Assembly (NCBI RefSeq): GCF_003334335.1 | Contig: NZ_QOWQ01000007.1 | Direction: 5' to 3' (one strand) | Length of the DNA: 64,000 bases | From: Escherichia coli | GTDB lineage: Bacteria > Pseudomonadota > Gammaproteobacteria > Enterobacterales > Enterobacteriaceae | In this document: piece after piece, positions 18,001-21,000 of the stretch | Position numbering within the stretch: the stretch's first letter is position 1 | Layout: each line of letters opens with the position of its first letter | Made by a program: the position numbers

Positions 18001-21000
18001 CTCAGGGCGGCAAACAGACCAGTAAATGGATTCGCTGACGGGTTAAGTGAAGAGTACATTACGCTGGCATCCGGGTTTGTACCAAATTTCTGGAAGACTT
18101 CGTTGGTAGCCGGTGCCATCCACGACGCAATATACAGACCACCACCGAACAATATGATCGAGGTCACCCAGGTGCGAATAATGTTGCCATTAAAAACAGG
18201 TACCATGCAGGCAATGAAAAACACAAACTGAGAGAGGTCACCCAGTGGCATAACGCGGTTGCCGGGCAAGATCACGGCGAGGATCACAATCACCGGGATC
18301 AGCAATAATGCAGGGGCGATAACTGATGGATGGCCCACAATCAGAGCAGTGTCCATACCAACAGTGATTTGACGATCCGGGAACCGTTTGACCAGTTTTT
18401 TGCGTGCTACGTTGGAAAGCGGAACAAGTCCTTCCATCATGATAGAGGTCATACGTGGTAACAGAAGCATGACCGCAGCCAGATACATCCCTAACTGTAG
18501 GCTGGCGATTATGGTGTGGTATGGGGATTTCCAGCCATAACCACAAAAGCCCAATAAAATACCAATAATAAAACCAACCATAGTTGGATCGCCGAGAATG
18601 CCAAACCGTTTCTGAATAGTTTCGGCGGTCACATTCAGATTACGGAAGCCTGGGATGCGATCATAAATCCAGTTGAATGGATAAGCGAAAAGTAAGTAGG
18701 TATTGGCAACCGGGTGAGAGATCGCAACACCTTTTGGCAGGTTAAAGAATTTTTCGTTATTTTTAGCACCAAGATCGGCAGCGATCAGCGCCCAGACATG
18801 GAATAGCGCGGCGGTCAATGCGCCATACAGGAAGCTACCAGAATAGACGCCAACAATTGCCCCCATTGACGCATTTTGATGAAGATTGAAGACATCAACG
18901 TTAACACAGTCAGTCAGGCGGGCGACCAGCATTGCAATATTTACCGCAACACAGAGGGGAATAATGATAGCGCCCATGCTGGAGCCAAATCCCATAACCG
19001 CAGTCGCTGCGCCACCAACATCGATGGCACTGAGCGAGGAACCTGTTGCTTCTGCTAATCCGGTGACTGCCGGTTGCATTTTTTCCAGCATCAGTTTGAT
19101 GGTCATGGTTAACGCAATGAAACCAATGCCGACTTTGATGGCAGACGAGATACATTCTGAAAGAGGACGGCCAAGTATCTTCATCAGTACCAGAAAGATG
19201 ACCGGGATAAATATAAAATTTCCCAGATCGTTTATAAATTGCGTGATCAGTTCCATACATTAACCCTCAGATTTTTCATCATCTGGTCGGAAACCCATAT
19301 TCCAGCGTACATCAGCGGGCTTAACCAGCAATGCATTATCGTTACGTTCAGCTTCTAGCAAGTTCTTTTTAGAATTTTCTCTGGCGGTGGTGAAGTCGAA
19401 TGGGTTATCCAACCATGCATCGACAATCATTTTGCTGTATTCGAGATCGTTGACCCGGCAACCCAGTCCAATAACTTGTGCGTTATTGCTGAGTCGCGCC
19501 CGCTTTGCGGAGTAGGGGTTAGTAACCGCAACGGCTCTTATGCCCCAGTGTTTGTTGATCTGACAAGTAAAGCCAATGCCAGTCCCACAAATGTAAATTC
19601 CCAGACGGCACTCATCGCGTTGAATAATGCCTGCCATTTCGTCGGCCAGACGCGCGAAGTTATTGACACCTTGTTCCTTACATGTGACGGGATCGTACAC
19701 GATCTCCATGTTTTTCTCTTCTATGAGGTATTTTTTTATCTCCTCTTTACGTGCAAAACCTACATCATCGCTTGCGATAGCAATCTTTGTTTTCATTTCA
19801 TTTTGCCTGTCGTTAAGTAACTAAAGCCAAGTATGCTGTTGGTAAATATTGGTTGTCAATTGAGATCTGAATCACAAAATTTATAACTAATTGATTTTAA
19901 TGGTATTAAAAACCAATAAAAACAAATAAAAAATAAATTAAGCCAATTGAGACAAATTGGGATTGTACAGTGGCGTTGTAATGAATAATAAAAACTCATT
20001 TATTATCAATCGGATATATGGTTTTTGAACTGTTGTCTTTATTGGGTTTATTTGTACTTTCCACTGTTAGTGTTTGTTTTTGTTTGCATCATCTGTGCTA
20101 TGCTTGGCGTTTTCTAAGATGGGTAATAGATTTCAGGAGGAAGGATGTATCTGGTTGATGAAAGGCGAAAGTTAATACTTGAAGACTTAATGTCGGCAGG
20201 TACGGTCTATGTCAGTGATCTTGCACGAAAGTATGAAGTAACGTATGAGACCATCAGGAAAGATTTGACCCATCTTGAACAAAAAGGGCTGCTGATCAAA
20301 AGCCATGGTGGGGCGACTTTAAAGCAAAGGGCTATAGAGCATCCCTTTCAGGTCAGGGAAAAAGAAAATAACTCTTATAAGAAGGCGATAGCTCGTAAAG
20401 CGCTTGATTTCATTCCGCCTAATAGTTCGATGATTATCGGTACGGGCAGTACCACTTTTGAGCTGGCTAACCTGTTATGTATGAAGTCTGGGTTTAAAAT
20501 CTTCACAGATTCGCTCCCCGTTGCCAGTGTGTTGATTGAATCTGACAACCAGGTTTTTCTCTTTGGCGGCGAACTGCGTAGAAAGAGTTCCTCAGTGTTT
20601 GGGGGGTGGGCGGTATCTATGATCAACGATATACATGTTGATCTCTGTTTTATTGGAACCGACGGCTTTAGTAACATGACTGGTCCATCGACGCCTTCTT
20701 CTTCTGATGCGTTTTTGGATCGTACGATAATTTCGCACTCAGACAAAAAATATATCCTCGGTGATTACACCAAGTTTGAGCGCAGCAGTTTATTTAAGAT
20801 CTGCGACTGGTCGGAGATCACCGCCCTTATAACCAACGATCATGCCGACAAAGAGGGGATTGCCGAAGTCGCAAAATACACGTCAGTAATAACCTGTTAG
20901 AACTCACTACGACACGCCTTCTCCCTTCGAATCAGCTTTGCCAAATGTAATCATTTCCCAATTATCAAGTGAGCATCCATGGCGATGCTTGCTTAGCGCC

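What the first reader, a model, noticed from the sequence alone, without database searches (positions are those of the whole stretch)
19797..20144. Extremely AT-rich divergent control region between the two island operons
About 350 bp of AT-rich DNA with A/T tracts separates the minus-strand isomerase-PTS operon from the DeoR regulator gene. This composition is typical of H-NS-silenced horizontally acquired promoters and curved DNA, suggesting the island is xenogeneically silenced under standard conditions.
Basis: partly seen in the sequence, partly recalled or inferred. Interest (0 to 1): 0.35.

Follow-up and report, generated by a model that had tools for sequence, protein, structure and literature searches.

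The report
Sugar-operon control region, repressor operators
The AT-rich 348-bp gap is an ordinary but densely packed sugar-operon switch: two back-to-back promoters with conserved sites for its own DeoR-type repressor, CRP and probably IHF; nothing in the sequence specifically indicates H-NS silencing.

Summary
Positions 19797-20144 are exactly the gap between an rpiB/lacAB-like isomerase-PTS operon (minus strand) and a DeoR/GlpR regulator gene (plus strand). It is 348 bp at 30.2% GC, the lowest of 38 intergenic regions in the window, but two core-genome regions tie with it (30.3%, 30.4%).

The locus is a 9.5-kb island between ldtA and tRNA-Asn, found in about 4% of complete E. coli genomes.

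Footprinting against 15 orthologous loci from three phyla shows what the AT-rich DNA holds:
- A minus-strand promoter (TTGACA-18 nt-CATACT) whose spacer is filled by a direct dyad, ATTGGT-N4-ATTGGT.
- Further dyads upstream, the first exactly 74 bp away.
- CRP-like and IHF-like sites, present only in gammaproteobacterial versions.
- An extended -10 promoter for the regulator gene.

The "phased A-tracts" are the spacers and flanks of the O2 dyad. The plus-strand PTS operon has its own control region (20901-21227) with a different operator type.

In-silico tests for H-NS hallmarks were negative: no high-affinity motif, and curvature and periodicity no greater than shuffles. Orthologous gaps are equally AT-rich in Firmicutes, which lack H-NS. 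H-NS binding remains possible but untested.

Verdict: a new member of a known kind, low interest.

The parts
19797..20144 (.). Whole divergent intergenic control region (348 bp, 30.2% GC)
19260..19796 (-). First gene of the minus-strand operon: RpiB/LacA/LacB-family sugar-phosphate isomerase, followed by PTS IIC, IIB and IIA (17109-19256)
20145..20900 (+). DeoR/GlpR-family regulator gene (HTH_DeoR + DeoRC); the recognition-helix segment V(S/T)YETIRKDL is invariant in 10 orthologues from 3 phyla
19830..19835 (-). -10 hexamer CATACT of the isomerase-PTS operon promoter; invariant in 8 Enterobacterales; inferred TSS about 19823
19854..19859 (-). -35 hexamer TTGACA of the same promoter (18-nt spacer); conserved from E. 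coli to Firmicutes
19838..19853 (+). Operator O1: direct dyad GTTGGT-AAAT-ATTGGT, filling 16 of the 18 spacer bases between -35 and -10
19826..19831 (+). Invariant GCCAAG unit in inverted orientation, overlapping the downstream edge of the -10; possible third unit of O1 (inference)
   Evidence: (invariant columns 30-35)
19861..19876 (.). CRP-like site TGAGA-TCTGAA-TCACA (9 of 10 core positions). The half-sites are invariant and the spacer varies. It lies 1 nt upstream of the -35, with its centre at about -45.5 from the inferred TSS
19884..19896 (-). IHF core consensus AATCAATTAGTTA at the midpoint between O1 and O2. It is at the same position in 8 of 9 Enterobacterales/Vibrio loci, and E. coli polymorphisms fall in its NNNN positions
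19912..19927 (-). Operator O2: dyad ATTTGT-TTTT-ATTGGT (plus strand ACCAATAAAAACAAAT), 74 bp centre-to-centre from O1. It carries the phased A-tracts and shows no variation among 8 E. coli alleles
19942..19957 (-). Operator O2': weaker dyad ATTTGT-CTCA-ATTGGC, found only in the E. coli version and in 10-bp register with O2
19958..20067 (.). Poorly conserved AT-rich linker. It cannot be aligned between genera and holds scattered single ATTGG-like units (for example 20041-20055)
20072..20087 (+). O3-like degenerate dyad GTTTGT-TTTT-GTTTGC in conserved block 2, over the -35 region of the regulator promoter. The Providencia equivalent, ATTTGC-TTTT-ATTGGT, is a better match
20096..20104 (+). Extended -10 TGcTATGCT of the regulator-gene promoter (TGTGnTATnnT invariant in 8 Enterobacterales); Shine-Dalgarno AGGAGG at 20135-20140
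20901..21227 (+). Separate control region of the plus-strand PTS-rpe-SDR-hxlB operon. It has the conserved extended -10 TGTGCTATAAC and palindromes GCTCAyrTGAGC (21067-21078, 21192-21203), and no ATTGGT dyads

Best explanation
The gap is the specific regulatory switch of a mobile sugar-utilisation module made of a DeoR-family regulator gene and a divergent rpiB-like isomerase-PTS operon. Leftward, a sigma-70 promoter (TTGACA, 18 nt, CATACT) drives the isomerase-PTS operon. Its spacer is occupied by operator O1 (ATTGGT-N4-ATTGGT), so a bound repressor would exclude RNA polymerase. A second dyad, O2, lies in inverted orientation exactly 74 bp (about 7 helical turns) upstream, with an extra E. 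coli-specific O2' beyond it. Together these probably allow cooperative binding or a small repression loop. A CRP-like site and an IHF-like site sit inside the O1-O2 interval, giving catabolite control and protein-induced bending. Rightward, an extended -10 promoter with a degenerate dyad (O3) over its -35 region drives the regulator gene, which is probably autoregulated. The inducer is presumably a phosphorylated sugar made by the PTS; the substrate is unknown. The low GC is a by-product of AT-rich operators, promoters, protein-bend sites and an unconstrained linker. Shown here: the anatomy, its conservation, its co-inheritance with the regulator, and the statistics. Inferred: which protein binds which site, the TSS positions, looping and the inducer.
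For: An alignment of 8 Enterobacterales gaps shows two conserved blocks around a variable middle, with invariant -35, -10, CRP half-sites and extended -10. The dyad motif was defined on E. coli and L008 and then tested as a fixed pattern on 8 further unalignable gaps, next to regulators that are 52-74% identical (Enterococcus, Paenibacillus, Gilliamella, Vibrio, Streptococcus, Companilactobacillus, Bombilactobacillus, a Staphylococcus plasmid). It gave 13 hits against 0.34 expected, with at least 1 in every gap. In the 64-kb window, 3 of the 4 strict hits fall within these 348 bp. In every Gammaproteobacterial and Firmicute locus the dyad sits between the -35 and -10. O1-O2 spacing is 74 bp in five genera and 75 bp in Paenibacillus. 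The regulator and the rpiB-PTS operon travel together without the second operon or the SorC-type regulator on a plasmid (L013), in Coriobacteriia (L008) and in several Firmicutes. The recognition helix is invariant. CRP-like sites occur in 9 of 10 gammaproteobacterial versions and 0 of 6 Firmicutes. IHF-like sites occur at the same position in 8 of 9 Enterobacterales/Vibrio loci and 0 of 6 Firmicutes. E. coli polymorphisms avoid O2, the -10 and the CRP half-sites, and fall in the degenerate positions of the CRP and IHF sites. The two operator types are exclusive to their own gaps.
Against: There is no experimental binding, TSS or expression data. The generic promoter scan finds no more promoter-like sites than shuffles do (4 against 4.9), so the promoter calls rest on conservation. 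The CRP-like site's centre is about -45.5 from the inferred TSS, not the canonical -41.5, and a single 1-mismatch CRP match is not significant by itself (5 in the window against 1.97 expected). The IHF core consensus carries little information (7 against 4.06 expected). O3 is a poor motif match in E. coli (5 mismatches in 12). The test gaps are homologous by descent, so the shuffle P-values measure conservation plus enrichment rather than independent origin. Strict O2 dyads are missing in some taxa (Citrobacter, E. faecalis, Staphylococcus).
Confidence: 0.75

Rival explanations
1. H-NS xenogeneic silencing: H-NS nucleates on the AT-rich, curved gap, spreads over the island and keeps both promoters off, with the AT-richness as its signature.
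For: The island is foreign and AT-richer than the core (42.5% against 48.7% GC; 1-kb windows run 38-47%). The gap is 70% AT, has 32 TpA steps (0.092 per step, among the higher values in the window) and a local curvature peak at about 19948. H-NS binds AT-rich DNA in general (PMC8476142).
Against: There is no high-affinity motif within 2 mismatches, against 1.0 expected. Curvature and AA/TT periodicity are no greater than shuffles and are not conserved. H-NS prefers TpA steps to A-tracts. Two core-genome gaps in the same window are equally AT-rich. Orthologous gaps are as AT-rich in hosts that lack H-NS. The sequence is under site-specific constraint that a specific repressor, CRP and IHF explain. 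No ChIP or hns-mutant data were found for carrier strains.
Confidence: 0.3
2. The ATTGGT dyads are operators for a different regulator, such as the SorC-type regulator at 16092-17057 or a host factor. The DeoR-family protein would then act at the GCTCA-NN-TGAGC palindromes of the second gap instead.
For: The island encodes two regulators and has two operator types, and no binding experiment assigns them.
Against: The dyads co-occur with the DeoR-family gene in loci that lack the SorC-type regulator and the second operon: L008, L013 (which has only a SorC fragment), L016, L018-L021. The regulator's recognition helix is invariant across these loci. The palindromes are absent from the flagged gap.
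Confidence: 0.08
3. The gap encodes something else, such as a small RNA, a leader peptide or small protein, or a remnant of a mobile repeat, and that accounts for its length and composition.
For: It is long for a promoter region, and about 110 bp in the middle (19958-20067) are unexplained. Ten ORFs of 20-47 codons overlap it.
Against: There is no Rfam match at E<=1. The small ORFs lie in the unalignable part and are not conserved. The sequence occurs once per genome in E. coli, so it is not a repeat element. No terminator-like site lies inside the gap.
Confidence: 0.05

Closest known systems
E. coli aga regulon: AgaR (DeoR family) acting at the divergent agaR-agaZ region (named from my own knowledge; AgaR is the best NCBIfam hit of this regulator)
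   Same: A DeoR/GlpR-family repressor gene lies divergent from a PTS/sugar-phosphate catabolic operon. There are several operators built from short T-rich repeats, probable autoregulation and cAMP-CRP dependence.
   Different: The regulator scores 170.7 bits against the AgaR model, below the 260-bit cutoff, so it is not AgaR. The operator unit is ATTGGT in a 10-bp direct register. The PTS is galactitol-type (EIIC-GAT), not mannose-type. The substrate is unknown.
Lactococcus and Streptococcus lac operon: lacR (DeoR family) divergent from lacABCDFEG (from my own knowledge)
   Same: A DeoR-family repressor gene lies divergent from an operon whose first gene product belongs to the LacAB/RpiB isomerase family, followed by PTS genes. 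One operator overlaps the promoter and a second lies upstream.
   Different: The enzyme set differs (no tagatose-6-P kinase or aldolase; an HxlB-type SIS isomerase instead), as do the PTS family and the operator sequence.
lac operon O1-O3 repression loop with the CRP site inside the loop (from my own knowledge)
   Same: A primary operator at the core promoter pairs with an auxiliary operator a fixed whole number of helical turns upstream (92 bp in lac, 74 bp here), with a CRP site in between.
   Different: The repressor family differs (LacI against DeoR). O1 lies in the spacer rather than at +11. An IHF-like site is also present. Looping here is inferred only from conserved spacing.
H-NS-silenced horizontally acquired promoters such as bgl, proU or LEE (from my own knowledge; general properties from PMC8476142)
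   Same: An AT-rich promoter region in foreign DNA.
   Different: No nucleation motif, no curvature beyond what composition gives, no occupancy data, and the AT-richness is shared with orthologues in hosts that lack H-NS.

Membership tests
DeoR/GlpR-family repressor-controlled sugar operon | The regulator has an N-terminal HTH_DeoR domain and a C-terminal DeoRC sugar-phosphate-binding domain | tested here: met
   NCBIfam DeoR-family hits; Pfam PF08220 + PF00455 on orthologues; RefSeq name
DeoR/GlpR-family repressor-controlled sugar operon | Repeated operator sites that overlap the regulated core promoter and are co-inherited with the regulator | tested here: met
   The ATTGGT-N4-ATTGGT dyad lies between the -35 and -10 in all Gammaproteobacterial and Firmicute loci; 13 hits against 0.34 expected in 8 test gaps
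DeoR/GlpR-family repressor-controlled sugar operon | The regulator physically binds these sites and is released by a sugar phosphate | not testable with these tools
   Needs EMSA or footprinting and identification of the inducer
DeoR/GlpR-family repressor-controlled sugar operon | Cooperative or looping use of several operators | tested here: inconclusive
   O1-O2 spacing is fixed at 74-75 bp in six genera, but strict O2 is missing in some taxa and there is no physical evidence
H-NS xenogeneically silenced promoter | Horizontally acquired DNA that is AT-richer than the host core genome | tested here: met
   Present in 241 of 5426 genomes; adjacent to tRNA-Asn; 42.5% against 48.7% GC; PMC7232551
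H-NS xenogeneically silenced promoter | H-NS occupancy in vivo and derepression in an hns mutant | not testable with these tools
   No ChIP or hns-mutant data for carrier strains in the searchable literature
H-NS xenogeneically silenced promoter | High-affinity nucleation motif (TCGATAAATT-like; consensus recalled from memory) | tested here: not met
   0 matches within 2 mismatches against 1.0 expected; 8 matches within 3 mismatches against 7.2 expected
H-NS xenogeneically silenced promoter | Intrinsic curvature beyond what composition gives | tested here: not met
   End-to-end/contour ratio 0.842, with 14% of shuffles as bent; not conserved in orthologues; script controls gave 0.29 and 0.98. 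Power at 10-11 bp periodicity is below the shuffle mean. There is only a local peak at about 19948
Class II CRP-dependent promoter | A 16-bp TGTGA-N6-TCACA site | tested here: met
   9 of 10 core bases match; the half-sites are invariant and the spacer varies; present in 9 of 10 gammaproteobacterial versions and 0 of 6 Firmicutes
Class II CRP-dependent promoter | Site centred at -41.5 from the TSS | tested here: inconclusive
   The centre at 19868.5 is about -45.5 from the inferred TSS of 19823 (about -43.5 in Gilliamella); the TSS has not been mapped
IHF-bent promoter region | WATCAANNNNTTR core at a conserved position | tested here: met
   19884-19896; the same position in 8 of 9 Enterobacterales/Vibrio loci; binding not testable
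Known structured RNA (Rfam) | Covariance-model match | tested here: not met
   No match at E<=1 across 19500-21500

The most novel reading that the evidence does not exclude
The regulator, its operator dyad inside the promoter spacer, and the fixed 74-75-bp O1-O2 spacing form a self-contained regulatory cassette. That cassette has moved, with its PTS operon, between Firmicutes, Coriobacteriia and Gammaproteobacteria. Gammaproteobacterial hosts then added CRP and IHF sites inside the O1-O2 interval, making a compact repressor-CRP-IHF nucleoprotein loop. H-NS, if it binds at all, would be a third, opportunistic layer. This would be a clean natural example of how a transferred operon keeps its private regulation while being wired into the host's global regulators.
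Probability: 0.45. Interest if true: 0.4.

Novelty: new member of a known kind. Interest (0 to 1): 0.22.

Why it matters
The direct value is modest. It turns a vague "AT-rich, maybe H-NS" flag into a testable map of an unstudied accessory sugar locus carried by strains of interest: AIEC LF82 and NRG857c, ATCC 8739 and the probiotic G3/10. PMC7232551 notes that the island has not been studied. The analysis supplies a predicted operator motif for an uncharacterised and widely transferred DeoR-family regulator. It also shows that AT-richness in an island promoter should not be read as an H-NS signature without controls, because here the same composition occurs in hosts that lack H-NS.

Tried and rejected
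- Rfam scan with permissive thresholds: nothing found.
- Small ORFs of 20-47 codons: present but not conserved.
- Mobile or repeat element: the gap occurs once per genome.
- Generic promoter and terminator scan: counts no higher than shuffles, so I used it only as a pointer.
- H-NS high-affinity motif: no enrichment.
- Region-wide AA/TT periodicity at 10-11 bp: not above shuffles.
- Wedge-model curvature: there is a local peak, but 11 other peaks in the window are as high. The 120-bp bend is within the shuffle range and is not conserved.
- Alternative -10 elements that would put the CRP site at -41.5 or -61.5: I checked these by reading the sequence, and no credible or conserved hexamer exists at either position.
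- Literature searches for H-NS ChIP or hns-mutant data in carrier strains, for the locus's function, and for the operator motif: only the NRG857c island description turned up.
- Whether the dyad also occurs in the second gap or upstream of the SorC-type regulator: it does not.
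Full report
**1. Observation**

The flagged coordinates are exactly the gap between an ORF at 19260-19796 on the minus strand and an ORF at 20145-20900 on the plus strand. RefSeq annotation of a 100% identical genome (E. coli strain 1506) names them an RpiB/LacA/LacB-family sugar-phosphate isomerase and a DeoR/GlpR-family regulator, and NCBIfam profiles agree.

The gap is 348 bp at 30.2% GC, against 47.1% for the window, which places it in the lowest 0.65% of 348-bp windows. It holds ten A or T runs of at least 4 bases. Among the 38 annotated intergenic regions of the window (mean 40.8% GC) it ranks lowest. Two core-genome gaps are essentially tied with it: porin-drpB at 54467-55116 (30.3%) and yeeN-amn at 30888-31229 (30.4%).

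**2. Context**

The 12-gene cluster runs as follows:
- a SorC-type regulator at 16092-17057 (+);
- IIA, IIB, IIC and the rpiB-like gene at 17109-19796 (-);
- the DeoR-type regulator at 20145-20900 (+);
- a 327-bp gap;
- IIA, IIB, IIC, rpe, SDR and hxlB at 21228-25350 (+).

It lies between ldtA and a tRNA-Asn gene. Its GC content is 42.5%, against 48.7% for flanking core genes. It is present in 241 of 5426 complete E. coli genomes, including ATCC 8739, LF82, NRG 857C and G3/10. PMC7232551 describes an asnV-ldtA island encoding a PTS in NRG857c and says its role has not been studied. The "horizontally acquired island" premise holds.

**3. Comparative anatomy**

The whole cluster is syntenic in Entomohabitans, Citrobacter, Enterobacter wuhouensis, Providencia and Klebsiella oxytoca. 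A smaller core, consisting of the regulator divergent from rpiB-IIC-IIB-IIA(-SIS isomerase), occurs on its own in several places:
- an E. coli plasmid;
- a Coriobacteriia genome (L008);
- Enterococcus faecalis, Paenibacillus, Gilliamella, Vibrio cholerae, Streptococcus suis, Companilactobacillus, Bombilactobacillus and a Staphylococcus plasmid, where the regulators are 52-74% identical.

The regulator and the divergent isomerase-PTS operon are thus the unit that is inherited together.

Aligning eight Enterobacterales gaps shows two conserved blocks, 19823-19931 and 20068-20108, around a middle that cannot be aligned.

**4. What the conserved blocks contain**

*Leftward promoter.* On the minus strand the sequence reads TTGACA (19859-19854), then ACCAATATTTACCAACAG, then CATACT (19835-19830). 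Both hexamers are invariant.

*Operator O1.* The 18-nt spacer is almost entirely a direct dyad, written on the plus strand as GTTGGT-AAAT-ATTGGT (19838-19853).

*The same unit in a distant genome.* The gap in the distant genome L008 cannot be aligned with the E. coli gap, yet it contains seven perfect ATTGGT/ACCAAT hexamers, arranged as three pairs with 10-bp spacing.

*Test of a fixed pattern.* I then fixed the pattern ATTGGT-N4-ATTGGT, allowing at most 1 mismatch per hexamer, and applied it to eight newly fetched gaps. It gave 13 hits against 0.34 expected from dinucleotide shuffles, with at least one hit in each gap. The roughly 60 kb of flanking DNA in those loci gave only 9 hits. In the 64-kb window, three hits fall in the flagged 348 bp and one elsewhere.

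*Position in the promoter.* Read on the rpiB strand, every Gammaproteobacterial and Firmicute locus shows the same geometry: -35 TTGACA, then the dyad, then the -10. This is the classic layout of a repressor operator inside a core promoter.

*Upstream dyads.* A second dyad, O2 (19912-19927, inverted orientation), lies 74 bp centre-to-centre from O1 in E. coli, Entomohabitans, K. oxytoca, V. cholerae and Gilliamella, and 75 bp away in Paenibacillus, even though the intervening sequence differs. E. coli has a further dyad, O2', at 19942-19957.

*Recognition helix.* The segment V(S/T)YETIRKDL of the regulator is invariant in ten orthologues from three phyla, which fits a shared operator.

**5. 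Host-specific additions**

Directly upstream of the -35 lies TGAGA-TCTGAA-TCACA (19861-19876). Its half-sites are invariant and its spacer varies, both between genera and among E. coli alleles. A comparable site is present in 9 of 10 gammaproteobacterial versions (a perfect TGTGATCTTGATCACA in Gilliamella) and in none of 6 Firmicutes. One 1-mismatch CRP match is not significant on its own, since the window has 5 against 1.97 expected; the case rests on the conservation pattern.

The centre of this site is about -45.5 from the inferred TSS, which is not the canonical class II position. This remains unresolved until the TSS is mapped.

At the midpoint of the O1-O2 interval is an IHF core consensus, AATCAATTAGTTA (19884-19896). 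It is one of 7 matches in the window, against 4.06 expected. It sits at the same position in 8 of 9 Enterobacterales/Vibrio loci and is absent from Firmicutes. The E. coli polymorphisms at 19887-19889 fall in its degenerate NNNN positions.

**6. Rightward promoter**

Block 2 carries an invariant extended -10 (TGTGnTATnnT; TGcTATGCT at 20096-20104). Just upstream is a degenerate dyad, GTTTGT-TTTT-GTTTGC (20072-20087), which is closer to the consensus in Providencia. This suggests autoregulation of the regulator gene.

**7. The second operon**

The plus-strand PTS genes are preceded by their own gap at 20901-21227. It has a conserved extended -10 (TGTGCTATAAC) and GCTCAyrTGAGC palindromes at 21067-21078 and 21192-21203. 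It contains no ATTGGT dyad, and the flagged gap contains no such palindrome.

The flagged region is therefore the switch for the minus-strand operon and the regulator gene, not the shared switch of "the two operons". No terminator-like site follows the regulator gene, so some read-through into the second operon cannot be excluded.

**8. The H-NS and curvature interpretation**

*Curvature.* A wedge-model curvature script gave 0.29 for phased A6 tracts, 0.98 for unphased tracts and 0.92-0.98 for random DNA, so its controls behave correctly. For the flagged gap it gave a minimum end-to-end/contour ratio of 0.842. That value is reached by 14% of the gap's own dinucleotide shuffles, and the bend is not conserved in orthologues. 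The local curvature peak at about 19948 is one of at least 12 comparable peaks in the window.

*Periodicity.* AA/TT periodicity at 10-11 bp is below the shuffle mean.

*Nucleation motif.* The H-NS high-affinity consensus, which I recalled from memory as TCGATAAATT, has no match within 2 mismatches, against 1.0 expected.

*Sequence preference.* PMC8476142 reports that H-NS prefers TpA steps to A-tracts.

*Other hosts.* The orthologous gaps are 8-23 GC points below their loci in all hosts. This includes Firmicutes (21-27% GC) and a 65%-GC Coriobacteriia genome (42% GC), none of which has H-NS.

The composition is therefore a property of the regulatory cassette rather than a signature of silencing. 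H-NS may still bind: the gap is 70% AT with 32 TpA steps, and the island is AT-richer than the core. I found no ChIP or hns-mutant data for any carrier strain. I put the chance that H-NS contributes materially at about 0.3.

**9. Other readings tried**

There is no Rfam match. The small ORFs are not conserved. The gap is single-copy in each genome, so it is not a repeat element.

**10. Verdict**

This is an uncharacterised but conventional control region: a DeoR-family repressor with its operators, CRP, and probably IHF. It is a new member of a known kind. The mildly interesting aspects are the conservation across phyla of the operator-in-spacer geometry and the 74-bp operator spacing, and the apparent grafting of CRP and IHF sites in gammaproteobacteria. 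All protein-site assignments, the TSS positions, looping and the inducer are inferred, not shown.

Noticed in passing
window 20901-21227: The second intergenic region has its own conserved extended -10 (TGTGCTATAAC) and three or four GCTCAyrTGAGC palindromes (perfect copies at 21067-21078 and 21192-21203). By elimination these may be operators of the SorC-type regulator at 16092-17057.
   Followed up: partly
L008, L014-L021 (orthologous loci): The regulator + rpiB-PTS module is very widely transferred. The regulator is 73% identical in Enterococcus faecalis and 62% in a 65%-GC Coriobacteriia genome, where the IIC protein is 72% identical. V. cholerae has a phage-type integrase next to it, and Staphylococcus and E. 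coli carry it on plasmids.
   Followed up: partly
window 25409-25484, 27817-27892, 29641-29716, 44027-44102: There are four tRNA-Asn genes in the window. The island abuts the first of them, the known asn-tRNA integration hot-spot, but this strain's copy of the island has no integrase.
   Followed up: no
L001 20892-30001 (ATCC 8739): In ATCC 8739 the right flank of the island differs. Two large hypothetical genes (3984 and 2127 bp), an NTF2-fold immunity gene and an Rhs core pseudogene follow hxlB, so the island's right border varies among strains.
   Followed up: no
window 54467-55116: This 650-bp core-genome divergent gap (porin-drpB) is as AT-rich as the flagged region (30.3% GC). It has a perfect CRP palindrome TGTGACTTTTATCACA at 55042-55057, a 1-mismatch match to the H-NS consensus at 54982, and two IHF-core matches.
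   Followed up: no
window 30888-31229: The yeeN-amn gap is 30.4% GC and has the highest TpA frequency in the window (0.117). The strongest predicted bend in the window is at about 30835.
   Followed up: no
window 1-7825: Prophage tail and baseplate genes, a tailspike-like glycosyl hydrolase and an O-antigen-modifying gtrA-yfdH(gtrB)-like cassette sit next to dacD, where ATCC 8739 has sbcB-dacD without them.
   Followed up: no
window 35731-43713: A very large Ig-like-domain protein gene (about 2660 codons, minus strand), probably a YeeJ-type adhesin.
   Followed up: no
L009 (Enterobacter sp. EA-1) and L006 (Providencia): In tblastn the EA-1 copy of the cluster is broken into several frames for IIC, rpe, SDR and the SorC-type gene, which means either decay or a poor assembly. 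Providencia lacks the second IIA gene and has a longer second gap.
   Followed up: no
window 19856 (allele of strain AMSCJX03, L029): One E. coli allele carries a T-to-C change inside the -35 hexamer (TTGACA becomes TTGGCA), and its regulator protein accession also differs. It may be a natural promoter-down variant.
   Followed up: no
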